Of a stretch of 64,000 bases of DNA, positions 19,517-63,085 are shown in pieces. The notes beneath the pieces are model-generated. The model had not been told where the DNA came from. It was given only the letters and a program-made list of their open reading frames with translations, and ran no database searches. How positions within the stretch are numbered: position 1 is the stretch's first letter; every line of letters begins with the position of its first letter. The translations under genes were made by a program, and so were the position numbers. The stretch comes from a virus (lineage: Duplodnaviria; Caudoviricetes): positions 833 through 64,832 of IMG/VR virus record IMGVR_UViG_3300028802_000001. One strand, given 5' to 3'.

Positions 19517-19738
19517 ATGCGATTCCGCTATGTGTTGCCGGTTCTGTTTTTGACAACGCCGACCTTTGCGCAACAGCAATCTACACCGCAACAAATAATC
19601 GAACAGCGCGAGGCTTTACAGATCGGGGCTCTGCTCAAGCAGAATATCACTCTGAGTGTCCAGCTTGAGGCGGCTAACGATGCCCTGGCGAAAGCGCAGG
19701 CCAGGATCAAGGAACTGGAAGCCAAGGTGCCAAAGTGA
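19517..19738 (+). CDS. Small signal-peptide coiled-coil protein (putative fibre chaperone)
   Basis: MRFRYVLPVLFLTTPTFA|QQQ; heptad tail LAKAQARIKELE. Confidence 0.6.
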   Translation: MRFRYVLPVLFLTTPTFAQQQSTPQQIIEQREALQIGALLKQNITLSVQLEAANDALAKAQARIKELEAKVPK

Positions 19739-37344: not shown

Positions 37345-37553
37345 TGGACGAAATCCTGCAAGCCAAATCGATATCATGCGAACTGTGCGAACACAGTTCA
37401 GGGGTGGATGTCTGCCTGCACGATGTGGACGGGGAGATTTTCGCTATGGCGCATGTCCCGGCGTCGAGCGGCAAGGAATTCCTCGCGCAGTTCCGAGCTT
37501 GCCTGAAAGCGACAGGGACGGTGGCGACTGCGCCCTCGCCGTGGGTGCAGTGA
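37344..37553 (+). CDS. Hypothetical protein
   Basis: TGATG coupling on both sides. Confidence 0.45.
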   Translation: MDEILQAKSISCELCEHSSGVDVCLHDVDGEIFAMAHVPASSGKEFLAQFRACLKATGTVATAPSPWVQ

Positions 37554-42514: not shown

Positions 42515-42698
42515 TGGTACAATCCGCTCCCACCGCGGTCGCATTGTGGTGGACTACTCGACGCCGCCCGTGATCGAGTACATTGACGAGCAACCATTGC
42601 CGCTTCGGTGGCAACTGTTCGCCGCCGCCATGGCCTGCTCTTGCACTGCGGCAATCGGTTTCATCTGGGCATACCTGATATTCGGGGTGTTGCAATGA
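42507..42698 (+). CDS. Small membrane protein
   Basis: C-terminal TM. Confidence 0.4.
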   Translation: MIDGTIRSHRGRIVVDYSTPPVIEYIDEQPLPLRWQLFAAAMACSCTAAIGFIWAYLIFGVLQ

Positions 42699-43327
42699 TG
42701 CGCTACGTGCTCACGGCGGCCGTCCTGTTACTGCCGCTCCCGGCCAGCGCCAATGCAATCACCTACACGGCCTCTGGGGTGATCGCGGCGTGGCCCGGAA
42801 CTGCGATTAGCGGTGAGACGTGGGGAATTGATGGGGGCGGCTACTTTGGATCAGCCGGCGCAAGCCTCGTTGGCGCTCCGTATGCGGTAACGTGGACGGC
42901 GACCGATTGCGAATGCATTGGCGCAGCAAATTATGCGCCACTGGCGTCTAGTTACCCCAAACCCAACCCCATCGTAGACGTGACGCTGACCATTAACGGG
43001 TTCACCTACGATTTTGGTGGCAACGGTTGGTATGGCGCATTCTATTTCAACGACCAAGCAACTGGCTATTTCGACGGTGGCAGCTTCATCGAAACGAGCG
43101 TGGGTGTTGCTCCGACGCCCGGTATCCAGGGATCTTTCCAGATCATCAATAACCGCTCGTCCACGCTGCAATTCACCAGCGGCATGTTCCAGGAAGCGCC
43201 GGTCGTGGTGAACAGGCTTGCGAGCGTTTCAGTTCCTGGTCCGGTCGCTGGCTCGGGTCTGCCCGGCTTGCTCATGGCATGCGCTGGCCTTCTCGGCTGG
43301 CGATGCAGAGCCAATAGGAGGCTATGA
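42695..43327 (+). CDS. Secreted protein with PEP-CTERM/VPLPA-CTERM-like sorting signal
   Basis: Signal peptide ...LPASANA|IT; C-terminal VPGPVAGSGLPGL-hydrophobic-WRCR..RR. Confidence 0.8.
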   Translation: MMRYVLTAAVLLLPLPASANAITYTASGVIAAWPGTAISGETWGIDGGGYFGSAGASLVGAPYAVTWTATDCECIGAANYAPLASSYPKPNPIVDVTLTINGFTYDFGGNGWYGAFYFNDQATGYFDGGSFIETSVGVAPTPGIQGSFQIINNRSSTLQFTSGMFQEAPVVVNRLASVSVPGPVAGSGLPGLLMACAGLLGWRCRANRRL

Positions 43328-47170: not shown

Positions 47171-47518
47171 ATGGCCTTCAATTGCAGGATTTTTGCCCAT
47201 GAGGGACTCGCGCAGATGCGATTGATTTTGCCAGTGCAGCACACTGAGGACACTGTCTATCAACTCACGCAGCCTTATGTGTTTTCGCAGATATTGACGG
47301 TGACCTCCACGCCGGTTTCGAGCGATGCCGACAGCACGCCGCGTGTTACGATCCTTCGGATCGAAGTTCCGGATGGGGCGAGCATCCGTTACGAGATCAA
47401 CCCAACGGGGCGCAACATACAGGCTGGCAATGAATCACCGATCTTGAGCGGGATGAACAATTTCCAATGGGCGCCGGAATGGCGTCTATCGGTGGTTGAT
47501 GCGGCGGCGTTTCCATAG
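47171..47518 (+). CDS. Beta protein, tandem paralogue 2
   Basis: Shared QLTQPY, TPRV..LRIEVPD, YEINP, SP..SG.NNF. Confidence 0.6.
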   Translation: MAFNCRIFAHEGLAQMRLILPVQHTEDTVYQLTQPYVFSQILTVTSTPVSSDADSTPRVTILRIEVPDGASIRYEINPTGRNIQAGNESPILSGMNNFQWAPEWRLSVVDAAAFP

Positions 47519-49984: not shown

Positions 49985-50053
49985 ATGCCCCGTGTCCCAC
50001 TCACAGGCCGCGCCTACCAAGAGCGTTCCGTCATCGCTGGAGGGAGTTGTTAA
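49985..50053 (+). pseudogene. 22-codon remnant resembling the N-terminus of P22 gp10-like tail proteins
   Basis: MPRVPLTGRAYQERSVIA; resemblance from memory only. Confidence 0.35.
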
Positions 50054-50307
50054 TGCCTCGGTGGTTGTGGTTTATTCCAACACTAATCGGGTTACAAATT
50101 GTTGGTACATTGGCAATTGCCCAACAACAGCAACCTGATCCGGCGTTTTTGTTGCAGGCAATGCAGGTAGTGCAGGGCCAGCGCAATAGCGCGCTCGATG
50201 GAATGGCGGTCTGTCAGGCGCAGGGCGCCATGATGACGGAGGAGCTAAAGAAGGCGAAGGAGCGAATTGCCATGCTTGAGAAGGCTGCGGAGGATAAGAA
50301 GCCATGA
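50053..50307 (+). CDS. Small signal-peptide coiled-coil protein (putative fibre chaperone)
   Basis: Hydrophobic N-terminus ending AIA|QQQQ; QRNSALD; LKKAKERIAMLE. Confidence 0.6.
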   Translation: MPRWLWFIPTLIGLQIVGTLAIAQQQQPDPAFLLQAMQVVQGQRNSALDGMAVCQAQGAMMTEELKKAKERIAMLEKAAEDKKP

Positions 50308-50528
50308 CCCGCCTTCCCTTCGCCATCGAGGATTTGTCGGCTGAAATCCGCAAGGTCTGCGGCGAAGGGGCGGAGATCGCGATATCGTTGAATGAGCCTG
50401 ATTGGGACAAGGTGATATCCGAGCTACGCAATCACGGGGATTTCTGGAAAATCGGGGATGCCGACGCCCATTTCAAGGGGATAACGCTGGTCAAGCTTGA
50501 GGGCGAAGATGTCCGCCCTGCTGCCTGA
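50304..50528 (+). CDS. Hypothetical protein
   Basis: ATGA coupling. Confidence 0.45.
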   Translation: MTRLPFAIEDLSAEIRKVCGEGAEIAISLNEPDWDKVISELRNHGDFWKIGDADAHFKGITLVKLEGEDVRPAA

Positions 50529-52074
50529 TTTCTCCGGTTTGACCAAGGCCAAGACCAGCCCGGAATACCAACGGTTGCGGGAATTGCTGAGAGACCGGGA
50601 ACAACGGCTCGACAAGCTCTACTGGATCAAGGACGCAAACGGCAATCCGGTCAAATTTGTCCGAAACGCCGCCCAGCGTGCTTACTATGGACAACGCCAC
50701 CATCGCGATCTCATTGCCAAATCCCGTCAATTGGGGTTCTCGACGCTGATCGAGATTCTGATGCTCGATACGTGCCTATTCACGATGAACACGCGCGCCG
50801 GGATTGTAGACAACACGTTGGATGACGCCGCGAAGAAACTCGATATCATCAAATTTGCCTATGACCGACTGCCGTCCCAACTGCGCACTGCGTTGCCGCT
50901 GATCAAGCGCAACACCGAAAGCATGGAGTTCTTTAACGGGTCCACCATCGAGATTGGCACCTCGGCCCGCGGCGGGACGTTCCAGTTCCTGCACATCTCG
51001 GAATTCGGCAAGACATCCGTAGATAGCCCTGATGTTGCTAGGGAAATCAAGATTGGTGCCATTCCTGCGGTTCATGCCGGGAACGTCTTGGCAATCGAGA
51101 GCACGGCGCACGGGACATCGGGTGAATTCCACGACATGGTGCAGCGTGCGGCGGCCCAGCAGAAGGAAGGGCGGGCGCTCACGGATCTGGACTTTAAGCT
51201 GCATTTTTATGGATGGTGGGTGAAGCCGGAATATCGGCTGCCCAACCACTTGGTGCATATCACGCAGGAACTGAAGGAGTATTTTGCATCATTGGCCCCA
51301 GCACTCTTGGCACAAGGCGTGCGGCTCGATGCCAATCAGCAGGCATGGTACGCGCAGCAATACTACGACCTGGGGCCGGATGACTGCCGGCAGGAATATC
51401 CGAGCACGTTCACGGAGTGCTTCTACAACTCGCTGGCCGGGGCGTATTTCAAGGCGGAGATGTCGCGGGCTCGCGCCGATGGGCGGATCGGGCAGATTGT
51501 CCCCCATGATCCTACGAGGCGCGTAAACACGTTCTGGGACATCGGGGAGGATGGAACGGCCATCCTGTTTCACCAGACCGATGGCTTGCGGCATCGGTTC
51601 ATCGACTATTACGAGGAAGAGGGCGGGTCGCTACAGTCGGCTGCCGCTATTCTGGACGCGAAGCGGATCGAGCGCAAGTTCATGTACGACAAGCACTACG
51701 GCCCGCATGACCTCGCCAACAAGGACTGGGCGCACGAGGCGCAATCTAGGAAGCAGGTCGCTGAGGGGTTGGGGATCAAGTTCACGGTCGTCCCGCGGGT
51801 GTTGGTGAAGGCGGACTCGATTGAGGCGGCTCGGCGGATGATTACCATGGCATGGTTCGACGTGACACACTGCTCGCTCTTGGTCGAGCGCCTTGATAAC
51901 TACCGCAAGAAGTGGAACAAATCGCTGGGGCAGTTCTCGGCGGAGCCAGAACACAAGCGACCTAGTCATCCCGCCGACGCCCTCCAGCAGGGTGCCATGG
52001 GCTTGGCTCCAGAGCGCATCCCGCGCGAGGCCAGGGCGCGACCGGAGAGGAAAACGTCGTCATGGGGAGCGTAG
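50509..52074 (+). CDS. terL: Terminase large subunit
   Basis: KSRQLGFST Walker A, LHISE Walker B, ESTAHG, WDIG nuclease Asp, GPHD, SHPADA. Confidence 0.93.
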   Translation: MSALLPDFSGLTKAKTSPEYQRLRELLRDREQRLDKLYWIKDANGNPVKFVRNAAQRAYYGQRHHRDLIAKSRQLGFSTLIEILMLDTCLFTMNTRAGIVDNTLDDAAKKLDIIKFAYDRLPSQLRTALPLIKRNTESMEFFNGSTIEIGTSARGGTFQFLHISEFGKTSVDSPDVAREIKIGAIPAVHAGNVLAIESTAHGTSGEFHDMVQRAAAQQKEGRALTDLDFKLHFYGWWVKPEYRLPNHLVHITQELKEYFASLAPALLAQGVRLDANQQAWYAQQYYDLGPDDCRQEYPSTFTECFYNSLAGAYFKAEMSRARADGRIGQIVPHDPTRRVNTFWDIGEDGTAILFHQTDGLRHRFIDYYEEEGGSLQSAAAILDAKRIERKFMYDKHYGPHDLANKDWAHEAQSRKQVAEGLGIKFTVVPRVLVKADSIEAARRMITMAWFDVTHCSLLVERLDNYRKKWNKSLGQFSAEPEHKRPSHPADALQQGAMGLAPERIPREARARPERKTSSWGA

Positions 52075-52752: not shown

Positions 52753-53010
52753 GTGTGGATTGTGGGGGCTGTAATTGGTTTCATTTTGCTTCCGAGCGTG
52801 CTCCTGGCGCGTGATTTGCTGGTCCCAGAATTTCAGCAGCAGGCTCTTCTCGTGATCTGCGAGAAGGCGGCTCGATCTCCAGCGGCTACAATTGATGAAG
52901 TCGCCAACATAGCGCAGTTTTGCATCAATTTCCGGAAGTCAATTATGCAGAACAATGCGGTCCCCGATCACCCCAGCCAGACTGATCCAGGGCAACAGCC
53001 AAGGAACTAG
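52753..53010 (+). CDS. Small signal-peptide protein with one Cys pair
   Basis: Hydrophobic N-terminus ending VLLA|RD. Confidence 0.5.
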   Translation: MWIVGAVIGFILLPSVLLARDLLVPEFQQQALLVICEKAARSPAATIDEVANIAQFCINFRKSIMQNNAVPDHPSQTDPGQQPRN

Positions 53011-53014
53011 AGAA

Positions 53015-54091
53015 ATGTCAATATATACGCGCATTTTGGCTCTGTCCTGCTTGGCGTTGTTGTCACTATGTGGGAGAGCATCTGCGCAAGGGACCATTGT
53101 GGTTGCCAGTTGCGGAGATTCATTGGCCTACATCGTAGGACAGGCCAACCGCAATGTTGCTATCGACATAAACGGGATTCAATGCACTGCGGCATCTGTC
53201 TCGGCTTCGATCACCGGATTTCCAGGCACCCAGACCACGGGAACGCCGATTTCCGTCACGACCGGAGGCGTAACCGGTACGCTGCCATCTGGCACCGAAG
53301 TGGTTGCAACGAACGTCGGCACCACAAATGCCGCCTACTGCAAACTTGGAGCGTCTGCCACCACGAGCGACCAATACATCTCCCCCAACGGAGGTTGGTT
53401 TGCCTTCACGGTCGGCGCCGCGACACAACTGACCTGCATCACGAGTACCAGCACCACGACCGTCAACATGGTCGGTGGCTCGGGCCTGCCGACTGGCACG
53501 GGCGGTGGGGGTGGCGGTAGCGGTAGCGGTAGCTCTTCAATCACCTCCTGGGGCGGCGGTGTGCTTGGTGCGATGGCGAATTACGGAACATCCCCCGGTG
53601 CCGTTCTAGTTCCAGGGGTGAATGCGTTTGTCACCAACGTGAACACCAACGGTCAGGCAACGATGGTCAATTCGTCGCCAGTAGTCATAGCAAGCAACCA
53701 AAGTGCTGTGCCTGTGTCTCTTGCTGCGGTCGCCACCGGGGGATCGTCAACGACTGGCAACATCGCAGCCAACAATACGACAGCCGTGGTTGTGAAAGCC
53801 AGTGCGGGAACACTTTATGGAGTTCAGGTGTATGGCATTGGATCAGCGCCAGCTTACCTTAAAATCTACAATGCCACTAGCGCCACCTGCGGCTCTGGCA
53901 CTCCCGTCAAACGGCTGATGATCCCATCTGCGGCTACTGCTGCAAATGGCGCTGGGAGTAACATTACATTCGGTACCTCTGGTGTCGCCTTTGGAACAGG
54001 CATTACCTACTGCATAACCACAGGCATTGCCGACAATGACACAACTGCACCAGCCGCAGCGACCTTTCTTGTCAACGTGGATTGGCTGTGA
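53015..54091 (+). CDS. Signal-peptide, two-domain beta (decoration/spike-base-like) protein
   Basis: ...GRASA|QG; Gly linker; C-terminal KASAGT...YLKIYNA...F.TGI.YC...ADNDTT; 6 Cys in mature part. Confidence 0.65.
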   Translation: MSIYTRILALSCLALLSLCGRASAQGTIVVASCGDSLAYIVGQANRNVAIDINGIQCTAASVSASITGFPGTQTTGTPISVTTGGVTGTLPSGTEVVATNVGTTNAAYCKLGASATTSDQYISPNGGWFAFTVGAATQLTCITSTSTTTVNMVGGSGLPTGTGGGGGGSGSGSSSITSWGGGVLGAMANYGTSPGAVLVPGVNAFVTNVNTNGQATMVNSSPVVIASNQSAVPVSLAAVATGGSSTTGNIAANNTTAVVVKASAGTLYGVQVYGIGSAPAYLKIYNATSATCGSGTPVKRLMIPSAATAANGAGSNITFGTSGVAFGTGITYCITTGIADNDTTAPAAATFLVNVDWL

Positions 54092-54252
54092 TGAAAATTG
54101 TATTCTATATTCTTTGCATTGGGCTTGCGCTCGTGTCGTCAGCGTTGGCGCAACTTGGGGTGTTCCAACTTAGCAGGCCAGTCCCCAGTGTTTGTGGCAA
54201 TACCTTGGACTTCACTTCTAGCTGCAACAGCCAATACATAACGGTGATCTAA
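54091..54252 (+). CDS. 53-aa secreted peptide with one Cys pair (not in ORF track)
   Basis: MKIVFYILCIGLALVSSALA|QLGVFQLSRPVPSVCGNTLDFTSSCNSQYITVI; TGATG coupling. Confidence 0.6.
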   Translation: MKIVFYILCIGLALVSSALAQLGVFQLSRPVPSVCGNTLDFTSSCNSQYITVI

Positions 54253-54253
54253 A

Positions 54254-55168
54254 ATGAGAAAATCCCTGTTCTTTCTATTAGCTATGACAGCTTCAGCTTT
54301 GGCAGCTGACAATACGGTCGTGCTCACTCCTGGCACTGGAGTGACGATGCGGACGCAGGATGTTGGCAGCGGTGTTCAGTCTCCGTACAATATCCTCGGC
54401 AATACTTCTGGAACGACAATCTACGGCACGGCTGGGACAGCTAATTCTGCTGTACTGAGTGTGCAAGGCATTGCATCAGGAACCAACTTGCCAGTTAGCG
54501 GGGCGTCTGGAGCTTTTGCGTCCGGCTCATTCGCAAGTGGCTCCCACGCTTCGGGATCGTTTGCGTCGGGGGCTTTCGCAAGTGGTAGCGTGGCAAGCGG
54601 AGCCTTGGCTTCTGGCTCCATTGCATCTGGTGCAATGGTCGATCTCGGGGCCATCGCAGATGCGGCTGCTACGGCAGGCAGTACAGGCACGGTCAACGCC
54701 AAGCTCCGATTGATGACAACACAGCTTGATACACTCAACACCAACGTCTCGTCAGCTATTCCTGCCGGGACGAATCTTATCGGCCAAGTTCGTTCGGTAA
54801 CAGGAGCTACCGGCGGTGGTACACTCACCAGTGCTATTGCCCCAGCAACGCCAGCAGGTGTCAATCTGAAGGCCAGTGCTGGAACAGTGTTCAAGGTCTT
54901 CGCAACGACAATTCAGTCAACGCCAGTCTACGTCAAACTCTATAATGCCTCGTCTGCACCTACTTGCGGATCAGGAACGCCTGTAGCGCGTTTCATGGTG
55001 CCATCGGCTGCTACTGCTGCAAACGGTGCTGGAACCAACATTGATCTCGGTGACATCGGTGCGGCATTTGGTACCGGCATTGGCTACTGCGTCACTGGCG
55101 CTCTTGCCGATAACGACACGACCGCAATCACAACTGCTAATACTCTCGTCAACATCGTGTGGAATTGA
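54254..55168 (+). CDS. Signal-peptide beta protein with pentapeptide repeats; C-domain paralogous to 53015
   Basis: MRKSLFFLLAMTASALA|AD; (G-x-x-A-S)n; TCGSGTPV...PSAATAANGAG. Confidence 0.65.
   Translation: MRKSLFFLLAMTASALAADNTVVLTPGTGVTMRTQDVGSGVQSPYNILGNTSGTTIYGTAGTANSAVLSVQGIASGTNLPVSGASGAFASGSFASGSHASGSFASGAFASGSVASGALASGSIASGAMVDLGAIADAAATAGSTGTVNAKLRLMTTQLDTLNTNVSSAIPAGTNLIGQVRSVTGATGGGTLTSAIAPATPAGVNLKASAGTVFKVFATTIQSTPVYVKLYNASSAPTCGSGTPVARFMVPSAATAANGAGTNIDLGDIGAAFGTGIGYCVTGALADNDTTAITTANTLVNIVWN
54503..54637 (+). repeat. About 8-9 tandem 15-nt codon-degenerate repeats encoding A-S-G-[SA]-[FHVLI]
   Basis: ASGAFASGSFASGSHASGSFASGAFASGSVASGALASGSIASGAM. Confidence 0.8.
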
Positions 55169-55171
55169 CCA

Positions 55172-55888
55172 ATGATCCGCATCGCATGGTCGATCAGTCT
55201 TTGTTTGTTTGTTGTCGGATTGCTTTGTTTGAACCCGCCATCGCGTGCTCAACTGACAGTGATGGGTGTTGGTGGTGGATTTGGTGGTGCCGCTGCGGCT
55301 GGTGGCAGCGCCTGGGGCGACAAAGGCACGAATGTCACGCTAAGCACAACGACAATTGCCAACGATACTGCCGCTAATTCGTCGGGAGTTAGTGCTTTCA
55401 GTTCGGTACGTGGAACACAGGCATATTCAAGCGGGAAGCATTATTTCGAAGTCAAAATGATAACTGCGCCTGGGTCTCCACTATTTATCATTGGAATAAT
55501 GGACAACACGACGGCGACTGGCGCCGCCATGGATGATACTCCAAATAACATCCCTAATGCCTGTGGCAATTCCATGTTCAATGGCAACACGTTTTCCGTT
55601 AATTGGAATGGTGTAAATTCCGGGTCTTGGTCACTTGTTGATGGCGATTACATGGGCGTTGCTGTTGATTCGGATAACGCGTTTTCTTACTTGGCTCTGA
55701 ATAATGTTTATTTTCTCAGTGGCGATCCAACTTCTGGTGCTATGGGAACAGGCTCTGTTTGCAGTAGCGTAGGCGCGGGAGCGCGCCCGATGATATCAAT
55801 ATTCAATGTTGCAGGCTCGTTTCAACTGAGAACGACTTCTTCGGCATTTCAAGGGACTTTGCCTACTGGATATTCGGCGTGGAACTAG
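55172..55888 (+). CDS. Signal-peptide SPRY/ConA-like lectin-fold protein
   Basis: ...PPSRA|QL; SVRGT...SSGKHYFEV, GD.MGVAVD, P.GYSAW. Confidence 0.75.
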   Translation: MIRIAWSISLCLFVVGLLCLNPPSRAQLTVMGVGGGFGGAAAAGGSAWGDKGTNVTLSTTTIANDTAANSSGVSAFSSVRGTQAYSSGKHYFEVKMITAPGSPLFIIGIMDNTTATGAAMDDTPNNIPNACGNSMFNGNTFSVNWNGVNSGSWSLVDGDYMGVAVDSDNAFSYLALNNVYFLSGDPTSGAMGTGSVCSSVGAGARPMISIFNVAGSFQLRTTSSAFQGTLPTGYSAWN

Positions 55889-55892
55889 CATC

Positions 55893-56705
55893 ATGATTAG
55901 ACGAGTCCTCGCAATCGTGCTGATCGTCTTATGTGTGTCCTCGCCGACCGGCATTGAGGCGTGGCCGGTGCATGGAAATGCTAACACCGTCATCAGAATT
56001 ATGCCTTTGGGAGATTCTATCACCCAGGGCCTGAACACGTCGTATGGCAGCTATCGCCGCCTACTCTACTCCCTGCTCATTGCAAATGGCGTCAATGTTG
56101 AGTTCGTCGGAGACTTGTCCGATGGGACGTTCCCGAGTCCGATGCACGAAGGACTGACTGGCTACTATATCGACGGCATCCGGGGCCAAGTCACGTTCAA
56201 TTCCATCATCGAGCGCAATAACCCTAGCATCATTCTGCTTCTGATTGGGACCAATGACATTTGGCATGGCCCGACAGATACACCAACAGAGACGCCATCC
56301 GATGCGCTGACTTTGTTAGGCCTGCTGTTGAGCGGAGATATCACGACGCACGGACCAAACGTAAAGGTTATAGTTGCCTCGATCCCTCCCATTGCATCGT
56401 TCGTGGCTGGTCCTACTGTGAGTTCAAATGTCAATGTTTACAACGCCGGTATTCCAGCGGCCGTTGCAGCGGCCGGAGCAAATTTTTCGTTTGTCGATGT
56501 CAACGCCGCCTTGACAACTTCGGACCTCGTTGATGGTGTTCATCCGACAGATGCTGGCAACGACAAGATTGCACCTGTTTGGTTGGCGGGTATCTTAGCG
56601 GTGTTGTTAGGAAATTGTGGGGGCGGTGGTCTTCTTGTCACTTCCAGCACTGATTGTTCCAATGTTTTGCAGTCTGGCGGCGGCGACAACTTAACACCAA
56701 ACTGA
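55893..56705 (+). CDS. Signal-peptide SGNH/GDSL esterase
   Basis: IMPLGDSITQG, HEG..G, LLIGTND, DGVHP. Confidence 0.9.
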   Translation: MIRRVLAIVLIVLCVSSPTGIEAWPVHGNANTVIRIMPLGDSITQGLNTSYGSYRRLLYSLLIANGVNVEFVGDLSDGTFPSPMHEGLTGYYIDGIRGQVTFNSIIERNNPSIILLLIGTNDIWHGPTDTPTETPSDALTLLGLLLSGDITTHGPNVKVIVASIPPIASFVAGPTVSSNVNVYNAGIPAAVAAAGANFSFVDVNAALTTSDLVDGVHPTDAGNDKIAPVWLAGILAVLLGNCGGGGLLVTSSTDCSNVLQSGGGDNLTPN

Positions 56706-56712
56706 GGGCACC

Positions 56713-58314
56713 GTGAGCATCTTGCACAGCAGGCGGACGGCGTTAATCGGAGGCATCGGTGCAGGATTGCTTGTGCCCCGGCGCGCAGATGCGAATACGG
56801 TGTTCACCAGTTTCGGCTTCAAAGCAACTGGTACGACAACTGATCGCACAATGCCTGATCGGCTGGCTGAGATACATAATGTGCTCGACTATGGTGCCGA
56901 TCCAGGTGGTGGAAATCCATCAGTCACCACCCCAGCAATTCAGGCGGCGGTTGACGCTGTCGTGGGGGCGGGTCGAGGGAGGATACATTTCCCGTTAGGG
57001 TCATATCAGACGAACGCACCAATCACATTTAATTATGATGGTGATTTAAGCATAAATTTCACCGGAGATATCGGTTCTGTCATCTTCGGCAATTTCAATG
57101 GCTATATTTTTGACAGGAACATTGCTCCTGTCACGGTCACGATTTCCATTGCGTCCCCAGGCGTCATTAGCGAGACATCGCACGGGCGACTGGCTGACGG
57201 ACAAGTCAGGTTTGCAACTACAGGCGCGCTACCTACAGGGCTTGTTGCCGGTGTTATTTATTACGTCAAGACGGTGCTTTCGTCGAGCACCTACACGGTA
57301 TCGGCAACGGCTGGCGGGACTGCCATAGTTACCACGGGTTCGCAATCTGGAACGCAGACGCGCTTGCCAAACAACACTTCTGGCGGCCGAATTTTTGAGC
57401 GTCTGATTATTCAAAATGGCCATGCCAGTGGCGGCGGCGTCAGGATAGGTGCCACTACAGGCGCGGCGTTTCGCGATTGTTTGATAAGTGCGTTTATCTG
57501 TGTGACCACAGAAGACGCCGTGGGGGTTAGTTCACAAAATGTGTTTTTTCAAGATTGCACAATGTCCAATGGCGGAGCTGTCTCCGGGTCGCACTTTATT
57601 ATCATCGGTGGCGGCGGGTCTATTGAAGGCTGTACTTTATCCGGTGCTGATACAGCAGTCAGGGCTTATGGTTCAGGGCTTTCTATAACTGGGTGCCGTT
57701 CTGAACGGTGTAATACATCCTACCTTTTTGGTGTCGATAGCGGGGATAATCCTGTTGGCTGTTCTGGGTTTTCGATAATGTCGTGTTCCACTGAGGGATG
57801 TTGGACATCCTACCATCTGGCAGGGCCATGCAACGGCTTTGCAATCGTGGGCGTAGGTGCTCTCGGGCATGATGCTGGAAATTCTGGCGTTGTCCCAGGC
57901 ATCATGGGTTCGCAGTATGGACTTCGCATCGACGCGGATTGCGCTAGCAACGGAGTTATCCAGTCGTGTACTTTTGGGGGTGACTTTCAGGCAATAGCCG
58001 GTCTTTCATTCGCGGGTGCGACAAGTCGCGGTAACGTCGTGGTCAGAGAGACTAATGCCATTTCAAATAACGGTGGCGGTGTGGGGTGGATTTTCCCGTC
58101 CAATGCCTACACAGCGCAATTCTTCAATAACAATGAATCTCCTCTGTGGACGTTTTCGCAGCTTCCTTCGGGCGGCAATGTACTTGAGGGCGACGAATAT
58201 GATCTTACTGATGCGAACTCTACCACATGGGGCGCGAACGTAACGGCAGGGAGCAGTTCTGGCCGCGTCAGGGTACGCTACAACGGCACCAATTGGACGG
58301 TGATGGGCAAATGA
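56713..58314 (+). CDS. Pectate-lyase-3-like beta-helix tailspike with twin-arginine-type signal
   Basis: SRRTAL..hydrophobic..ADA|N; DRLAE..NVLDYGAD...AIQAAVD...FP.G.Y. Confidence 0.75.
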   Translation: MSILHSRRTALIGGIGAGLLVPRRADANTVFTSFGFKATGTTTDRTMPDRLAEIHNVLDYGADPGGGNPSVTTPAIQAAVDAVVGAGRGRIHFPLGSYQTNAPITFNYDGDLSINFTGDIGSVIFGNFNGYIFDRNIAPVTVTISIASPGVISETSHGRLADGQVRFATTGALPTGLVAGVIYYVKTVLSSSTYTVSATAGGTAIVTTGSQSGTQTRLPNNTSGGRIFERLIIQNGHASGGGVRIGATTGAAFRDCLISAFICVTTEDAVGVSSQNVFFQDCTMSNGGAVSGSHFIIIGGGGSIEGCTLSGADTAVRAYGSGLSITGCRSERCNTSYLFGVDSGDNPVGCSGFSIMSCSTEGCWTSYHLAGPCNGFAIVGVGALGHDAGNSGVVPGIMGSQYGLRIDADCASNGVIQSCTFGGDFQAIAGLSFAGATSRGNVVVRETNAISNNGGGVGWIFPSNAYTAQFFNNNESPLWTFSQLPSGGNVLEGDEYDLTDANSTTWGANVTAGSSSGRVRVRYNGTNWTVMGK

Positions 58315-59939
58315 TATTGCCATTGTGGCGGGCAGTTCTTTTGGCCGGCGGGTCTTGGCTCGTAGCGAAGCAAGCCTTCGCCGCTGATGTTGCCTTCACA
58401 ACATATGCATTTCCTGCCACTGCCACGCCAACTTCGATCACCCTGCCTGATCGGCTTGCGCAGATAAAGAACGTCAAGGACTTCGGCGCGACCGGAAACG
58501 GTGTCACCGATGATCTTGCAGCTATTCAGGCCGCTTTCGATTGGACTGTCGGGGCATCCAGGGGGTGTCTTTATTTCCCTCCTGGGACTTATTACGTCTC
58601 TGGCCCAATCGACATCAGTACCACGTCAACTACCGTTTATATTCTTGGAAGCATGGGGGCTTCAACTCTCGTTGGTAACTTTGCTGATTATGTCATTAAA
58701 CGATATTTTCTTGGGCCTGATCTTGGAGGCTCCGGCCACGTCATTGAGAAGTTGACCATCATCAACAGCAATGCTCTTGGTGGTGGAATAAGAATCGGAG
58801 GGTGCGTCGGTGCCGCTGTTCGCGATTGTGACATCACGGCGAACTTTGGGATTGATACCGACAACAGCGACGTGTTTGGTCCTCCAGGCGGTCCTGGGGC
58901 TTATTGGTATTCTGTCGAGGTCAGTATTGAGAATTGTCACATGCGGGCCTATACCGCGTTGGCTACTGGTTCAACTGGAATGGCTCGCGGTGGAAATGGG
59001 CCTACGAGCAACTGCACCTTCAAAAATTTTGACACAGCGTTGCGGACATATGGCGGCCAAGGGGCGCACAACTATTTTGGGTGCTATTTCGAAGGGAACA
59101 ACATTGCGATAGCAAACTCCACGCCACCTTATCCAGGGGCACTTCACGGAACGGGTGGAAGTACGGGTGGACTCGCGTTTGTCGGTTGCCATTTCAAAAA
59201 TAATGGCATCGCAATTGATTTTGTTGCAGGCATCACGCGATATTCTGGTCTTTTCATTGAGGCGTTGGAAGGTACAATTCCAGGAGACCCACAGTATGGG
59301 ATCACTGTAGAAGGTGGTGGAAGTTGCGCATTCGAAGGGATTTCAATAACGGGTCAGTATGCTGTTGCTGGCGTTCAAATGACAGGTGGCGAATCCGTTT
59401 CCTCACCGTCAGCATGGATGGGCGTCGGTGTGACTAATACCAGTATGGCTGGCGGCGCTGTGGCTTGGGATTTGCCATCAACCGCTAAGTCTATGAATAT
59501 CATTGAGTGCAACGTTGCGTCTGTCTGGACGATGGCGGAACTTCCAGCCAAGACCTATACTCTCGCAACAGCAACGTGGTCAGGTGGCACTGCAAGCATA
59601 ACTGTTGTTGGCGGTTCCGGTGATCTTCCAACAGGGCAAAACCTGAACGTGACCATATCGGGAGTAACGCCGTCCGGTTATAATGGTTTCTTCTTTGCAA
59701 CCGTGACTAATTTTAATGCATTTACCTACACGGTTGCTGATCCAGGTGGCCCCGGTACTGTTATGGGGACCGCATTTGAAACTGCGGCATCCAATCAAGG
59801 GGCTAATGCTGTTGAAGGGGTGACATACAATGTCAGTAATGCCGACACGGCAACGTGGGGTGCTGCTGCCGTCAGCACAGGGTCAAACCACTGCAAACTC
59901 AGGTTTACGCCAGCGGCGTGGACGGTGATGGGGAAATGA
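58311..59939 (+). CDS. Pectate-lyase-3-like beta-helix tailspike with signal peptide; paralogue of 56713
   Basis: ...AKQAFA|AD; DRLAQ..NVKDFGATGNGVTDD.AAIQAA...YFPPGTY; both end WTVMGK. Confidence 0.78.
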   Translation: MILPLWRAVLLAGGSWLVAKQAFAADVAFTTYAFPATATPTSITLPDRLAQIKNVKDFGATGNGVTDDLAAIQAAFDWTVGASRGCLYFPPGTYYVSGPIDISTTSTTVYILGSMGASTLVGNFADYVIKRYFLGPDLGGSGHVIEKLTIINSNALGGGIRIGGCVGAAVRDCDITANFGIDTDNSDVFGPPGGPGAYWYSVEVSIENCHMRAYTALATGSTGMARGGNGPTSNCTFKNFDTALRTYGGQGAHNYFGCYFEGNNIAIANSTPPYPGALHGTGGSTGGLAFVGCHFKNNGIAIDFVAGITRYSGLFIEALEGTIPGDPQYGITVEGGGSCAFEGISITGQYAVAGVQMTGGESVSSPSAWMGVGVTNTSMAGGAVAWDLPSTAKSMNIIECNVASVWTMAELPAKTYTLATATWSGGTASITVVGGSGDLPTGQNLNVTISGVTPSGYNGFFFATVTNFNAFTYTVADPGGPGTVMGTAFETAASNQGANAVEGVTYNVSNADTATWGAAAVSTGSNHCKLRFTPAAWTVMGK

Positions 59940-60039: not shown

Positions 60040-60609
60040 ATGTCCGGCCATCTTCTGAAGACCATCAACCCAGAGGCCGCCGAGGAGGCAGATAACGGCT
60101 GGAAGCCGGCCGGACCTCCACTCGTGGAGGATGTTGAGGCAATCCCGATGGGGATACATGAGGGAGTGCCTTTTGAGGAGGTGCCTATGTTGGCTCTCCC
60201 GTCTGTTGGCATGGATGTGGTCTATCACCTTCGGGATGGCGATGCCCGCAACATGCGGACGAAGTTTCCCGCGGTCGTGCTCGATGCCGATCCGGTGACA
60301 AGCACCCTGTCAATTGTGGTTATGGTTGACGCTGGCGACCTCTGGCGGCAGGACCGCGTTCCGCAATATGCGCCGCCTGAGGCAGGGTGGGGTTGGGTCG
60401 GAAGTGGGCGTATGAATCCTCAATTTGTAGTCCCAGAAGGGGTGGGTGATGATGATTACACCCATCCGGGCGACATCACCTGGGAGAGGCAAGGGGGAAC
60501 GGGGGATGTGGCCGCTCTACAATCGACCATCACCTCGCTGGAGGCGCGCATTGCTGCCTTGGAGGCCAAGCGCGGTCCTGGGCGGCCTCCCAAGTTGAGG
60601 GACGAGTAA
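60040..60609 (+). CDS. Hypothetical protein with C-terminal coiled coil and AT-hook (KRGPGRPPK)
   Basis: GAGG RBS; motifs seen. Confidence 0.55.
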   Translation: MSGHLLKTINPEAAEEADNGWKPAGPPLVEDVEAIPMGIHEGVPFEEVPMLALPSVGMDVVYHLRDGDARNMRTKFPAVVLDADPVTSTLSIVVMVDAGDLWRQDRVPQYAPPEAGWGWVGSGRMNPQFVVPEGVGDDDYTHPGDITWERQGGTGDVAALQSTITSLEARIAALEAKRGPGRPPKLRDE

Positions 60610-60748: not shown

Positions 60749-63085
60749 ATGGCCTTCGAGCGCATCGACACCCCTCCTGACGACGGCATGACGATTGAGG
60801 CCGAGTCGAAGGACGATAATCGCCTGCCAGAGGCCGCAACTCCCATTTCCAAACTCCCGAAAGGGAAGCAATTCGACTGCCTCAAGGCGCATTGGCGCTC
60901 AGATGCGGATCATTCCCGTGAGTGGCGCAAGAACGCCGACTTTTGGTTTGGATTTCGGGCTGGCGAGCAATGGACCGAGGAAGACAAGGCGTTGCTCGAT
61001 AGCCAGGACCGCCCCCACATCGTTTTCAATCGCGTCTTGACCATCCTCAAGGCTGTGGCCGGGATGGAGATCAACGGTCGCCACGAGGTGGGATATCTCC
61101 CGCGGGGGACTGAGGACACCAAGGCTAACGAAGTCCTCTCGGCCGGCTCCAAATGGATGTCCGATGAGTGCGATGGAGAGGACGAGGAATCCCAGGCATT
61201 CGACCAGTGCTGTACGACCGGCATGGGATGGGTGGAGGAGCGCATTTCCTTCACGAAAGAGCCCAAGGGACTCTACGTCGAGGAGATGATCGACTGCCGG
61301 GAGATGTACTGGGACCGGCGAGCCAAGAAAAAGAACGTGGCTGATGCCAAGCGCATGGCGCGCGTTCGCCGGATGTCCTATGGCGATGCCGCTAGATTGT
61401 TTCCGGGGTTTACGCGGGACCAGCTTGATGCGGTGTGGGCCATCGAGGGGTTACAGGATTATCCGCTGCGTTCGATTGAGGAACGGCGACGGCGCAACAC
61501 CGATACCGATACGATGCTCTATGATGATCAATGCGAGGTCGTCATTGTTCACATGCAGTGGGTTGAGTTTGAAACCTACTGGCTGATTGCCGATGAGGTC
61601 GAAGGCAAGATCAGCGAATTGACCGATGAGCAATACCAACGGCTAGTCCCGCGCATGAAGGCGCTCGGGATGGAATTGCATGCCGCAAAACTTGAGCGGG
61701 AAATCTATAAGCAGGCGTTCCTTGGGAATGAGTTGCTGAAGCCTGCTGGTCCCGCGCCAATCAAGGGACAATTCTCCTGGAAATGCATTACCGGCGAGAT
61801 CGATGCACAGAAGAACGTGTGGTTTGGCCTCGTCAAGGTGATGCGCGATCCGCAGATGTGGGCCAACAAGTGGCTCAGTCAAATCTTGCATATCCTCAAT
61901 ACGACGGCGAAGGGCGGCATCATTGCCGAATTGGATGCGTTCGAGGACATGACTGAGGCGGAGCAGGGTTATGCCCGGCCTGACACGATTACCTGGGCGA
62001 CGAAGGGTGCGATTAGCGACCAAAAGATCATGGCCAAGCCAGGGGCTGGCATGACGGACGGATATTTGGGTCTGATGACGTTCGCCATCTCGTCCGTGAA
62101 AGATGTGACCGGCATTAATCTGGAATTGCTCGGCCAGCAAGATCAAAATCAGCCCGGCATCCTAGAGGCCATGCGCAAGCAAGCTGGCATGACGGTGCTG
62201 GCGACGCTGTTCGATTCGCTGCGCCGGTTCCGCAAAGAAGTGGGGCGCACGCGGTTGTACTTCATCCAGACGTTTCTGTCGGATGGCCGTCTCATTCGTG
62301 TGGCGGGCCCTGACAGCGTCGAGGCGGTGGCTCTTGCGAAGGACAAGACCGTTGGCGAATATGACGTGGTGGTCGATGACACGCCCACGAGTCCAAACCA
62401 AAAAGAGCAGAATTGGGCAATCATCCAGCCGCTTCTGGCGGTATTCAAAGACCAACTTATGGCCAATCCGCAGGTGTTTGCGCTGTTGCTGGAATACTCG
62501 CCACTGCCGGCGCGTATCGTTGAGGCCATCAAGGGCTTCATCAAGCAGGCGACGGAAGACCCGCAGGCTGTCCAAGAGAAGCAGGAAGACCGCAGATTGC
62601 TGGTGGACGCTCGCCTTGCCGCCACGGCCAAGGACCAGTCCATCGCCGAGATGAATCTCAAGAAGGCGAGCGCCACAGAGGCGACGGCGATGTACGATAT
62701 CGCAATGGCTCGCAATCTGTTGGAAGACAACAACATGGCTGGGCTCAAGGCCCACCTTGATGCTATGGCGGCGGCTGCGAAGGCCAAGGAGGCCGATGCC
62801 AATGCCGCCAAGACGGGGGCGGAGGTCGAGCACACCAACGCTAAGACGGCCCGTGAACTGGCAGGGATCGGCACTGATGCGATAGACGCTCATGGGCGTC
62901 ACCTACAGGCACGGGCTGCGGCCCATTCGACCCTGGCCGATGCCCATGCCACGCGGGTGGGTGCCCACGGCGAGATCATGGGGCGGATGATAGACCATTT
63001 GCAGGGCGTGGCGGCTGCGCACAAGGATGTGGCGCATGCAGCCAAGCTCAAGGCTGACGCTAGACGGCCGAGGACGGCAGCATGA
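60749..63085 (+). CDS. Portal protein (P22-like)
   Basis: GEQW, RP...NR, G.GW, MRDPQ...NK..S, VTG.N..LLG, GEYDVVVD..P.SP. Confidence 0.9.
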   Translation: MAFERIDTPPDDGMTIEAESKDDNRLPEAATPISKLPKGKQFDCLKAHWRSDADHSREWRKNADFWFGFRAGEQWTEEDKALLDSQDRPHIVFNRVLTILKAVAGMEINGRHEVGYLPRGTEDTKANEVLSAGSKWMSDECDGEDEESQAFDQCCTTGMGWVEERISFTKEPKGLYVEEMIDCREMYWDRRAKKKNVADAKRMARVRRMSYGDAARLFPGFTRDQLDAVWAIEGLQDYPLRSIEERRRRNTDTDTMLYDDQCEVVIVHMQWVEFETYWLIADEVEGKISELTDEQYQRLVPRMKALGMELHAAKLEREIYKQAFLGNELLKPAGPAPIKGQFSWKCITGEIDAQKNVWFGLVKVMRDPQMWANKWLSQILHILNTTAKGGIIAELDAFEDMTEAEQGYARPDTITWATKGAISDQKIMAKPGAGMTDGYLGLMTFAISSVKDVTGINLELLGQQDQNQPGILEAMRKQAGMTVLATLFDSLRRFRKEVGRTRLYFIQTFLSDGRLIRVAGPDSVEAVALAKDKTVGEYDVVVDDTPTSPNQKEQNWAIIQPLLAVFKDQLMANPQVFALLLEYSPLPARIVEAIKGFIKQATEDPQAVQEKQEDRRLLVDARLAATAKDQSIAEMNLKKASATEATAMYDIAMARNLLEDNNMAGLKAHLDAMAAAAKAKEADANAAKTGAEVEHTNAKTARELAGIGTDAIDAHGRHLQARAAAHSTLADAHATRVGAHGEIMGRMIDHLQGVAAAHKDVAHAAKLKADARRPRTAA

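What the first reader, a model, noticed from the sequence alone, without database searches (positions are those of the whole stretch)
52753..59939. Phage operon of exported tailspike, lectin, esterase and decoration-type proteins: a periplasmic arm of virion biogenesis or a secreted arsenal
Seen: eight consecutive, tightly packed genes between TerL and portal each begin with a signal-peptide-like N-terminus, most with a clear AxA-type cleavage site (52753, 53015, 54091, 54254, 55172, 55893, 56713, 58311). The same holds for the fibre genes at 17988 and 47529 and their small partners at 19517 and 50053. Where counted, the mature parts carry even Cys numbers (10, 12, 6, 2, 2, 2, 2), while the signal-less collar fibre at 16173 has no Cys. 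Established: beta-helix tailspikes, S74-chaperoned fibres, and SPRY and SGNH domains on phage appendages normally fold and assemble in the cytoplasm without signal peptides. Inference: these proteins are exported, oxidatively folded in the periplasm, and either dock onto virions at or after lysis or act as free EPS/LPS-degrading or receptor-masking factors.
Basis: partly seen in the sequence, partly recalled or inferred. Interest (0 to 1): 0.92.

Follow-up and report, generated by a model that had tools for sequence, protein, structure and literature searches.

The report
Phage operon of exported glycan-handling proteins
A soil phage carries a run of eight genes for fibre-, lectin-, esterase- and spike-like proteins that are built to be sent out of the host cytoplasm, whereas other phages make the same proteins without an export tag.

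Summary
The window is a complete 64.8 kb phage genome. Eight tightly packed genes (52753-59939) between the terminase and portal genes all begin with signal-peptide-like N-termini; six (c2, c4-c8) are backed by homologues, two small ones (c1, c3) are not. They encode two trimeric jelly-roll-knob fibres, a SPRY protein, an SGNH esterase and two pectate-lyase-fold beta-helix proteins.

Export is well supported. Signal-less relatives in other phages start exactly at the predicted cleavage sites. c5, c7 and c8 are 55-66% identical to a syntenic signal-less trio. In the fibre family, 115 of 117 leader-bearing members have an even Cys count, and a conserved Cys pair is present in 76 of 87 against 0 of 20 signal-less members. 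The beta-helix family shows no such Cys signal.

Leader-bearing genes cluster by phage (28 of 99 neighbours against 21 of 419). Tat-type relatives of c7/c8 sit in bacterial polysaccharide loci. The slot holds 0 to 8 such genes in sister phages, so the cassette is accessory.

Best reading (0.5): an exported, disulfide-stabilised toolkit acting on host envelope glycans. Docking onto virions at lysis remains open (0.3). No such operon turned up in six literature searches.

The parts
52753..53010 (+). c1, 85 aa. Hydrophobic N-terminus without a positive n-region; 2 Cys. Status as a gene is uncertain.
   Evidence: ORF. No tblastn match in any fetched locus. No Pfam or PHROG hit.
53015..54091 (+). 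c2, 358 aa. Sec-type leader, 6 mature Cys, C-terminal jelly-roll knob shared with c4.
   Evidence: The knob is 89% identical to that of another phage (L090); 64 loci match. The public gene call P0232 includes the leader.
54091..54252 (+). c3, 53 aa. Leader plus a 33-aa mature peptide with 2 Cys. Unverified.
   Evidence: One weak match (L115, E 6e-4).
54254..55168 (+). c4, 304 aa. Leader, conserved N-terminal domain, Ala-Ser-Gly-rich repeat shaft, coiled coil, jelly-roll knob with one conserved Cys pair (238/279). Predicted homotrimeric fibre.
55172..55888 (+). c5, 238 aa. Leader plus SPRY domain; 2 mature Cys (131, 197).
55893..56705 (+). c6, 270 aa. Leader plus SGNH/GDSL esterase (GDS, GTND and DxxH blocks visible); C-terminal tail with 2 Cys.
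56713..58314 (+). c7, 533 aa. Twin-arginine-like leader plus beta-helix, a paralogue of c8, with an inserted ~80-aa domain; 12 Cys.
58311..59939 (+). c8, 542 aa. Sec-type leader plus pectate-lyase-fold beta-helix; 10 Cys. Its start overlaps the c7 stop.
50497..52074 (+). Large terminase (upstream flank).
   Evidence: PHROG terminase families. 41.5% identity to the terminase of Sphingopyxis phage VSN-002.
52414..52740 (+). Conserved small gene that marks the upstream edge of the variable slot. Its start within the ORF is uncertain.
   Evidence: Matches in L003, L004 and L088.
60040..60609 (+). Conserved 189-aa gene that marks the downstream edge of the slot.
   Evidence: Positional equivalents in L002 and L003. 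Weak match in L004.
60749..63085 (+). Portal protein.
   Evidence: Pfam P22_portal, E 7.2e-95.
47529..49949 (+). Leader plus beta-helix plus S74 chaperone fibre; 12 Cys in six close pairs.
50053..50307 (+). Small leader-bearing coiled-coil protein just downstream of the 47529 fibre gene.
17988..19511 (+). Leader-bearing 507-aa protein; 10 Cys in five close pairs. Fibre-like by weak leads only.
19517..19738 (+). Small leader-bearing coiled-coil protein downstream of 17988. It has the same build as the 50053 protein.
42695..43327 (+).
16173..17177 (+). Leaderless tail collar fibre with 0 Cys. It is a candidate for the virion's own receptor-binding protein.
   Evidence: PHROG tail/collar families down to E 4.7e-26. 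Cys count.

Best explanation
The eight genes, six of them well supported, form an accessory cargo cassette. It sits in a variable slot of the head-gene region of a complete soil phage. It is co-oriented and tightly packed with the late genes.

Its products are sent across the host inner membrane: by Sec for c2-c6 and c8, and probably by Tat for c7. The leaders are cut so that the same mature N-termini appear as in the leaderless cytoplasmic versions of other phages. The fibre-type and SPRY proteins then fold with disulfide bonds.

Together they act as a glycan-binding and glycan-cutting toolkit: two trimeric knob fibres, a SPRY module, a deacylating SGNH esterase and two beta-helix glycanases. 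I propose that the target is the host's own envelope polysaccharide (EPS, capsule or O-antigen). The toolkit would act from the periplasm before lysis and in the surroundings after it. The virion does not need these proteins for assembly.

Shown by comparison: the domain folds, the modular nature of the leaders, the link between Cys and leader, the accessory status of the slot, and the existence of bacterial relatives in glycan loci. Inferred: actual export, the substrate, and the benefit to the phage. That benefit could be stripping or shortening receptors so that progeny are not trapped and rivals cannot adsorb, or loosening the matrix.
For: 1. Leaders are modular.
- Of the 61 best c8 relatives read, 33 start about 30 residues before the first beta-helix rung with no leader, 20 carry a Sec- or Tat-like leader ending just before the same motif, and 8 are truncated or differ.
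- c5, c7 and c8 are 55, 66 and 64% identical to a syntenic leaderless trio in L009.
- Of the 7 closest c6 relatives, 6 are leaderless.

2. Fibre family (174 unique members).
- 115 of 117 leader-bearing members have an even, non-zero Cys count. After clustering at 60% identity this is 100 of 102 clusters.
- The 22 leaderless members that begin at the cleavage point have 0-3 Cys: 5 zero, 7 even, 10 odd.
- The knob's Cys pair is present in 76 of 87 leader-bearing members and in 0 of 20 leaderless ones (Fisher 3.5e-14, not corrected for phylogeny).
- The two mature Cys of c5 are absent from both leaderless orthologues.

3. Within the window, 11 of 13 leader-bearing proteins have an even, non-zero Cys count. 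Among 40 others the counts are 9 even, 14 odd and 17 zero.

4. Leaders come in sets. 28 of 99 same-strand neighbours carry one in 11 leader-positive loci, against 21 of 419 in 44 leader-negative loci (Fisher 3.6e-10). L096 has 8 in a row.

5. The cassette is accessory. The slot holds no cassette in L088, one such gene in L003 and two or more in L002 and L005. Its GC is 0.52, against 0.55-0.60 for most of the genome.

6. Tat-type relatives with the same mature N-terminal motif sit in bacterial loci: beside Wzm/Wzt O-antigen exporter genes (L183), beside a carbamoyltransferase and three glycosyltransferases (L186), and beside OpgC (L177). WceF is a characterised bacterial analogue (PMC7949094, passages read).

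7. c7 and c8 have no room for a particle-binding N-domain. The beta-helix starts about 30 residues after the cut.

8. A leaderless collar fibre is available as the virion's own receptor-binding protein.

9. The c4 homotrimer model scores 0.80 against a best control of 0.00. That mark was reached by 20 of 30 proteins solved as pairs of one chain and by 1 of 23 solved as single chains. The runs agree in at least 89% of contacts, and partner pLDDT is at least 76. The calibration holds only roughly here, because three copies and my own alignment were used.
Against: - No signal-peptide predictor was available, and nothing shows export experimentally.
- The beta-helix family shows no link between Cys and leader. 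13 of 20 leader-bearing and 18 of 33 leaderless members have even counts, over similar ranges.
- The fibre family looks like a receptor-binding protein. It has a conserved N-terminal domain at the extreme mature N-terminus and mosaic C-termini. Leaderless members lie beside terminase, portal and scaffold genes. That fits virion parts better than free enzymes.
- The cassette shows no promoter or terminator excess of its own: 13 against 10.4 expected, and 14 against 13.9. It is probably made with the virion genes, unlike a classical moron.
- Each large fibre gene outside the cassette is followed by a small exported coiled-coil gene, like a fibre-assembly factor.
- The host is not known. The MAG labels (Pseudolabrys, Nitrospirae, Hyphomicrobiales) are binning-level hints only.
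Confidence: 0.5

Rival explanations
1. Periplasmic arm of virion biogenesis. The exported fibres and spikes fold oxidatively in the periplasm. They bind to capsids or tails when holin lesions and lysis mix the compartments, as non-essential decorations or side fibres.
For: - The fibre family has the build of a receptor-binding protein: a conserved N-terminal domain and swapped C-terminal knobs. One knob is 89% identical between unrelated phages.
- Leaderless members begin with Met-Ala/Val/Thr-Asp-Asn. After Met removal this would give the same N-terminus as leader cleavage gives (Met excision is from general knowledge). So the exact mature N-terminus is under constraint.
- Leaderless members lie next to portal, terminase and scaffold genes.
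- The cassette lies inside the late operon without signals of its own.
- Exported small coiled-coil genes follow the two large fibre genes.
- The knob resembles phage cement and fibre-tip domains only weakly (Z 6.8-7.4, all under 8).
- From general knowledge, P22 tailspikes and T4 Hoc/Soc bind particles in vitro. Attachment after assembly is therefore physically possible.
Against: - Sister phages manage with 0 to 2 genes in the slot.
- The N-terminal motif of c7/c8 also occurs in bacterial Tat-exported enzymes in glycan loci, so it is part of the enzyme and not a docking peptide.
- c7 and c8 have no particle-binding domain.
- Moving several needed virion parts to another compartment one gene at a time would pass through defective intermediates, unless the parts are dispensable.
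- No case in tailed phages turned up in six literature searches.
Confidence: 0.3
2. Cell-side protection. The exported proteins stay with the infected or lysogenic cell, in the periplasm or on the outer face. They mask or destroy the receptor to block superinfection, like known phage-encoded envelope proteins.
For: - Signal-bearing accessory proteins are a known phage theme. Five such genes of unknown function are reported in Porphyromonas phages (PMC10367356, passages read). 5% (3261 of 64,678) of prophage CAZymes carry signal peptides (PMC13507307, passages read).
- An HTH gene pair is arranged divergently at about 30.1 kb, and lambdoid recombination genes are present. These would fit a temperate life style.
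Against: - No integrase was found.
- The cassette is embedded in the late structural operon, not in an early or immunity region.
- Family-4 relatives were found in only 4 of 301 sampled genomes of the candidate host order, and weakly. Prophage carriage therefore looks rare in those searched.
Confidence: 0.12
3. The hydrophobic N-termini are not cleaved export signals. They would be mis-set starts, membrane anchors, or parts of the folds.
For: - The public gene call for c4 (P0121) starts at Met32, without the leader.
- c1 lacks a positive n-region and has no relatives.
- c4 and c8 have no Shine-Dalgarno-like motif upstream.
- c7 matches no TAT profile.
Against: - The stretch upstream of Met32 in c4 is conserved as protein in many relatives.
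- The leaders themselves are conserved in relatives: P0012, P0032 and P0036 for c8, and P0339 (78% over residues 1-45) for c5.
- Leaderless relatives begin at the predicted cuts.
- The Cys parity signal would have no cause.
- The c8 start overlaps the c7 stop, and the c4 start lies one base after the c3 stop, so translational coupling explains the missing SD.
Confidence: 0.05

Closest known systems
Pantoea stewartii WceF: a Tat-exported, tailspike-like EPS hydrolase encoded in the stewartan cluster
   Same: Both are right-handed beta-helix glycanases of phage tailspike type with an export leader and no role in a virion. Relatives of c7/c8 with Tat-like leaders lie in bacterial polysaccharide loci in just the same way (PMC7949094, passages read).
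   Different: WceF is a chromosomal bacterial gene. It keeps an N-terminal domain like the P22 head-binding domain. No sequence relationship to c7/c8 was tested. Here the genes are phage-borne, lie in a late operon, and come with fibres, a SPRY protein and an esterase.
Bdellovibrio MAT fibres: signal-peptide-bearing trimeric fibres with S74 or beta-sandwich/TNF-like tips
   Same: Both are phage-fibre-like trimers that carry signal peptides and are exported to work outside the cytoplasm. Some end in an S74 chaperone, like the 47529 protein. Others end in a beta-sandwich tip. The Bd2133 tip is among the knob's structural neighbours (Z 6.8). (PMC10769870, passages read.)
   Different: MAT fibres are encoded by a predatory bacterium and displayed on its own surface. 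They share a ~130-aa domain after the leader that was not looked for here. The structural match is weak (Z under 8).
Classical phage tailspikes and depolymerases (P22 gp9, K1F endosialidase and others)
   Same: They share the beta-helix fold, the S74 chaperone and SGNH side activities, and they are encoded among structural genes.
   Different: The classical ones have no leader, fold in the cytoplasm and carry an N-terminal particle-binding domain. c7 and c8 have a leader and no such domain.
Exported phage accessory proteins (morons, superinfection-exclusion lipoproteins, signal-bearing endolysins, signal-bearing prophage CAZymes)
   Same: These are phage genes whose products use the host Sec or Tat pathway. 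About 5% of prophage CAZymes carry signal peptides (PMC13507307, passages read).
   Different: Those are single genes, usually with their own regulation. Here there is a run of eight inside the late operon, drawn from fibre and spike families, and the pattern recurs as sets in several uncultured phages.

Membership tests
Sec-type (signal peptidase I) signal peptide | Positive n-region, uncharged hydrophobic h-region, small residues at -3 and -1 | tested here: met
   My own rule-based scan, not SignalP. c2, c4, c5 and c6 pass the strict rule. c8 passes a looser rule. c3 passes by eye. c1 lacks the positive n-region.
Sec-type (signal peptidase I) signal peptide | The leader is removable: the mature part is a self-sufficient protein | tested here: met
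   Leaderless relatives start at the predicted cuts in the c4, c5, c6, c7 and c8 families.
Sec-type (signal peptidase I) signal peptide | Actual translocation and cleavage | not testable with these tools
   Needs reporter fusions or N-terminal mass spectrometry.
Tat signal peptide (c7) | Twin-arginine motif before a mildly hydrophobic h-region | tested here: inconclusive
   An S-R-R-x-A-L-I stretch is visible. No TAT profile matched in Pfam or NCBIfam. More distant relatives carry clearer RR or KR leaders.
Pectate lyase superfamily beta-helix (PF12708) | Match to the family profile above its cut-off | tested here: met
   c8 scores 53.1 bits against a cut-off of 27. c7 has no Pfam hit but aligns with c8 along its length at 33% identity and has a weak pectate-lyase PDB hit at E 0.014.
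Virion tailspike | N-terminal particle-binding domain ahead of the beta-helix | tested here: not met
   The beta-helix profile match starts at residue 54 of c8, about 30 residues after the cut. The same short N-terminus occurs in bacterial relatives.
Virion tailspike | Presence on purified particles | not testable with these tools
   Uncultured phage.
SGNH/GDSL hydrolase (c6) | Profile match and conserved blocks with the catalytic Ser, Asp and His | tested here: met
   Lipase_GDSL_2 at E 2.2e-17. GDS, GTND and DxxH blocks are visible in the translation.
SPRY domain (c5) | Profile-level match to SPRY | tested here: met
   c5 alone has no Pfam hit. The family profile matches the RanBP10 SPRY at E 3.1e-19. 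19 of 42 members hit PF00622. Sugar binding was not tested.
Peptidase S74 chaperoned fibre (47529) | C-terminal S74 domain after a beta-helix | tested here: met
   PF13884 at E 8.4e-11 and PF13229 at its cut-off.
Moron (autonomous accessory transcription unit) | Own promoter and terminator flanking the insert | tested here: inconclusive
   No excess over shuffles. The scan covers only sigma-70-type consensus sites, and the host is unknown.
Capsid decoration or cement protein | Jelly-roll trimer that binds the capsid lattice | tested here: inconclusive
   The knob is a jelly roll. The KHP40 cement protein is among its neighbours at Z 7.2, which is under 8. A trimer is predicted. Capsid binding is not testable here.

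The most novel reading that the evidence does not exclude
A set of uncultured soil phages routes its fibres, spikes and lectin modules through the host periplasm so that they gain disulfide bonds. The phages then arm or decorate their particles with them when lysis mixes the compartments. This would be a second, extracytoplasmic branch of tailed-phage assembly. It would use the host Sec, Tat and Dsb machinery, and it would have arisen by adding leaders to whole sets of formerly cytoplasmic virion proteins.
Probability: 0.3. Interest if true: 0.95.

Novelty: new variant of a known kind. Interest (0 to 1): 0.8.

Why it matters
Tailed-phage appendages are taken to fold and assemble in the cytoplasm. 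Here whole sets of fibre-, spike-, lectin- and esterase-type genes carry export leaders, while close relatives in other phages lack them. The fibre and SPRY families also show a Cys signature of oxidative folding.

Whatever the fate of the proteins, this shows three things:
- Phages can switch the compartment of such proteins repeatedly.
- Bacterial glycan-locus enzymes and phage 'tailspikes' belong to one exchanging pool.
- Part of what is annotated as tail fibre or depolymerase in soil viromes may never sit on a virion.

There are practical consequences. These proteins may need a periplasmic or oxidising expression route to be active. Host-range prediction from 'tailspike' genes would be misleading for such phages. 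If docking at lysis is real, it would add a new step to phage assembly and a new host dependency (Dsb, Tat).

Tried and rejected
- SignalP and TatP are not on hand. My own rules gave many false positives when any start was allowed (35 of 117 ORFs), so a stricter rule was used for the counts.
- The fibre family was sought in genome contigs. The first alignment was too diverse (error). A closer alignment found no relative.
- The family was not found in 50,697 cultured phage records. A leaderless member gave only partial matches to unannotated proteins, and PHROGs gave nothing useful for leaderless members.
- The host stays open.
  - The major capsid profile found two MAG contigs, labelled Pseudolabrys and Nitrospirae.
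  - Family 4 matched in 4 of 301 sampled genomes of the order of the first MAG, weakly, and in neither MAG itself.
  - P0041 matched in 0 of 301.
  - The listing of cluster members gave one name only.
  - No tRNA. No lipobox spanin was found by a simple pattern.
- Gln follows the predicted cut in 7 of 13 leaders. A rough look at 400 kb of the Pseudolabrys MAG was too noisy to say whether that is unusual.
- The promoter and terminator scan showed no excess.
- No TAT profile hit for c7.
- Foldseek and VIA gave only generic jelly-roll neighbours for the knob (E at best 3.5e-4; Z at most 7.4). No family is excluded by that.
- The Atlas leads for the 17988 protein were all under 0.9.
- Sequencing runs: no RNA holder is listed. 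In a second soil run of another study, low-depth contigs near-identical to the window cover the terminase, c2-c4 and portal regions, but none was laid on 55015-59822 apart from a trace near 58.3 kb. No contig bridges that part, so nothing can be said about its presence there.
- Literature searches for signal-bearing tail fibres or tailspikes, or for periplasmic assembly of tailed phages, gave no such case. Subscription journals and supplements are not covered.

Full report
**What the window is.**
- The window is all but 832 bases of an IMG/VR virus record of 64,832 bp with direct terminal repeats, rated complete.
- It has a P22-type portal (Pfam E 7.2e-95) and a large terminase.
- It also has a major head protein, internal virion proteins, a transglycosylase, a leaderless tail collar fibre and an endolysin with a peptidoglycan-binding domain.
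- Lambdoid recombination genes and a helicase are present.
- No integrase and no tRNA were found.
- A soil metagenome run holds it whole and may be its source.

**The observation.**
- Eight + strand ORFs fill 52753-59939 with gaps of -4 to +7 nt. I call them c1 to c8. Each begins with a hydrophobic leader.
- c2, c4, c5 and c6 pass a strict rule of my own. c8 passes a looser one.
- c7 has a twin-arginine-like leader by motif, but no TAT profile matched.
- c1 has no positive n-region and no relative. c3 is a 53-aa ORF with one weak match. I treat these two as unverified.
- Shine-Dalgarno-like motifs lie 9-14 nt upstream of c1, c2, c3, c5, c6 and c7. c4 and c8 start at or next to the preceding stop.
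- Five further leader-bearing genes lie elsewhere: 17988, 19517, 42695, 47529 and 50053.
- Mature Cys counts of the 13 are 10, 4, 12, 1, 0, 2, 6, 2, 2, 2, 2, 12, 10. Of 40 leaderless genes, 17 have none, 9 an even count and 14 an odd count.
- The cassette has lower GC (0.52) than most of the genome.

**What the proteins are.**
- c8 is a pectate-lyase-fold beta-helix. c7 is its paralogue with an inserted domain.
- c6 is an SGNH/GDSL esterase with its catalytic blocks in place.
- c5 had no Pfam hit, but 414 representatives relate to it. A 42-member profile matches SPRY domains of solved structures (best E 3.1e-19), and 19 of the 42 hit Pfam SPRY.
- c4 and c2 share a C-terminal domain.
  - An AlphaFold model of c4 (mean pLDDT 78, knob above 90) shows a jelly roll.
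  - Its neighbours are generic (Foldseek E at best 3.5e-4; VIA Z at most 7.4).
  - Upstream of the knob lie a coiled coil and an Ala-Ser-Gly-rich repeat shaft.
- Three copies of mature c4 are predicted to form a trimer along the whole length.
  - The score is 0.80 against a best control of 0.00.
  - That mark was reached by 20 of 30 proteins solved as pairs of one chain and by 1 of 23 solved as single chains.
  - The runs agree in at least 89% of contacts, and pLDDT is at least 76.
  - The calibration holds only roughly here.
- The nearest Atlas clusters of c4 are 82-95% viral.

**The leaders are modules.**
- *c8 family.* Of the 61 best c8 relatives that I read, 33 start about 30 residues before the first beta-helix rung without any leader. 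Twenty carry a Sec-like or Tat-like leader that ends just before the same conserved motif. Eight are truncated or differ.
- *Syntenic trio.* Another phage (L008/L009) carries SPRY, beta-helix and beta-helix genes in the same order between its portal and scaffold genes. They are 55, 66 and 64% identical to c5, c7 and c8, and all three lack leaders. L010 and L012 show the same.
- *c6 family.* Six of the seven closest c6 relatives lack a leader.
- *c4 family.* There are 440 hits, of which 120 were read, plus 61 IMG/VR loci. Most members carry a leader. The leaderless ones begin with Met-Ala/Val/Thr-Asp-Asn, exactly where the leader-bearing ones are predicted to be cut.
- *The c4 start.* The public gene call for c4 starts at Met32 and drops the leader. 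The stretch upstream of it is conserved as protein in many relatives, so the longer start is right.

**Cysteines.** There are 174 unique fibre-family sequences.
- 115 of 117 with a leader-like h-region have an even, non-zero Cys count after the leader. After clustering at 60% identity this is 100 of 102 clusters.
- The 22 leaderless Met-x-Asp-Asn starters have 0-3 Cys: 5 zero, 7 even, 10 odd.
- The knob's two conserved Cys columns are both Cys in 76 of 87 leader-bearing members and in 0 of 20 leaderless ones, where they are mostly Val/Ala (Fisher 3.5e-14, not corrected for shared descent).
- A third class of 35 with other N-termini is mixed. It includes truncated gene calls and a few leaders that my rule missed.
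- The two mature Cys of c5 are replaced in both leaderless orthologues.
- In the wider SPRY family the signal is weak, and my classifier is noisy there.
- The beta-helix family shows no such link. 13 of 20 leader-bearing and 18 of 33 leaderless members have even counts, over similar ranges. Ten of the 12 Cys of c7 are shared with its leaderless orthologue.
It does not hold for the spikes.

**Leaders come in sets.**
- In 11 loci whose fibre gene passes the strict rule, 28 of 99 same-strand neighbours pass too. In 44 loci whose fibre gene does not pass, 21 of 419 do (Fisher 3.6e-10; Mann-Whitney 2e-5).
- Two loci that look leader-positive by eye (L091, L107) fell in the negative group. That works against the contrast.
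- L096 has eight such genes in a row. L099 has four just upstream of its terminase gene. L108 has four after its internal virion proteins.

**The slot.**
- Phages related by portal (51-69% identity) and capsid (65-76%) keep the order terminase, small conserved gene, slot, 189-aa gene, portal.
- The slot has no cassette in L088, one leader-bearing gene in L003 and two or more in L002 and L005. One gene in L005 is a bare leader plus knob.
- The cassette is therefore dispensable cargo, drawn from a shared pool of modules. The c2 knob is 89% identical to that of an otherwise different phage.

**Bacterial relatives.**
- More distant c7/c8 relatives with RR or KR leaders and the same mature N-terminal motif were fetched from metagenome contigs.
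- Several sit in bacterial glycan loci:
  - directly after Wzm and Wzt O-antigen exporter genes (L183);
  - beside a carbamoyltransferase and three glycosyltransferases (L186);
  - beside OpgC (L177).
- Another relative, without a leader, sits after a portal gene in a phage contig (L184).
- This is the pattern of WceF, a Tat-exported tailspike-like hydrolase in the stewartan cluster (PMC7949094, passages read).
- It shows that the short N-terminal motif belongs to the enzyme and is not a docking peptide.

**Reading.**
- Export and, for the fibres and SPRY, oxidative folding are well supported by comparison. I put that sub-claim at about 0.85.
- What happens next is open.
- I favour an accessory toolkit that works on the host's own envelope polysaccharide (0.5), for four reasons: the slot is dispensable; c7 and c8 lack a particle-binding domain; they have bacterial counterparts in glycan loci; and a leaderless collar fibre is present.
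- Docking on particles at lysis stays a serious rival (0.3).
  - The fibre family is built like a receptor-binding protein.
  - Its exact mature N-terminus is kept by both routes.
  - Leaderless members lie beside head and packaging genes.
  - The cassette has no detectable signals of its own.
  - The two large fibre genes outside the cassette are each followed by a small exported coiled-coil gene.
- A cell-side protective role (0.12) and mis-set starts (0.05) are less likely.

**What is known.**
- Signal-bearing phage accessory genes are known singly. 5% of prophage CAZymes carry signal peptides (PMC13507307, passages read). [quoted passage not shown]
- Exported phage-like fibres are known in Bdellovibrio (PMC10769870, passages read).
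- Six full-text searches found no tailed phage with an operon of exported fibre- or spike-type proteins, and no assembly step outside the cytoplasm. Supplements and subscription journals were not covered.
- I file this as a new variant of a known kind.

Noticed in passing
window 19517-19738 and 50053-50307: Two small genes of the same build: a leader, a Gln-rich start and about 50 aa of coiled coil. Each lies directly downstream of a large leader-bearing fibre gene (17988, 47529), like fibre-assembly factors. No relatives were found in any fetched locus.
   Followed up: partly
window, 13 leader-bearing genes: Gln follows the predicted cleavage site in 7 of 13 leaders, and many fibre-family relatives show the same. 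This could point to N-terminal pyroglutamate, or to the host group. A rough comparison with a candidate host MAG was too noisy to judge.
   Followed up: partly
L003:5158-8694 and L003:9986-13348: In a sister phage the terminase and portal ORFs are enlarged (1178 and 1120 aa). Homology to the window's proteins is split by about 1 kb inserts in frame. This looks like inteins or other in-frame insertions.
   Followed up: no
window 54254-54346: The public gene call for c4 (P0121, 273 aa) starts at Met32 and drops the leader. Automated calls may hide such leaders in virome catalogues.
   Followed up: yes
window 46757-47155 and 47171-47518: Tandem paralogues with near-identical N-termini lie upstream of the 47529 fibre gene. 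Homologues sit upstream of the terminase gene in L003 and L088.
   Followed up: no
window 47529-49949, residues 107-250: This part of the exported S74 fibre resembles (36-44% identity) a stretch inside leaderless ORFs of sister phages L002-L004. Two of these begin like the window's 7454-9172 virion protein. This suggests module exchange between exported and virion proteins.
   Followed up: no
protein P0250 (c6 relative): A leaderless SGNH relative begins with the short N-terminal motif that otherwise opens the c7/c8 beta-helix proteins. The motif may be a movable N-terminal module.
   Followed up: no
window 32564-33181 and 37376-38338: A Mom-like DNA modification gene and a PAPS-reductase-like gene are present, which suggests DNA modification functions.
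   Followed up: no
L008:4861-5445 (-) and L013:11913-12458 (-): Phages whose spike genes lack leaders each carry one leader-bearing gene on the opposite strand, just after the spike genes. It weakly resembles the window's 42695 protein (51% over 41 aa).
   Followed up: no
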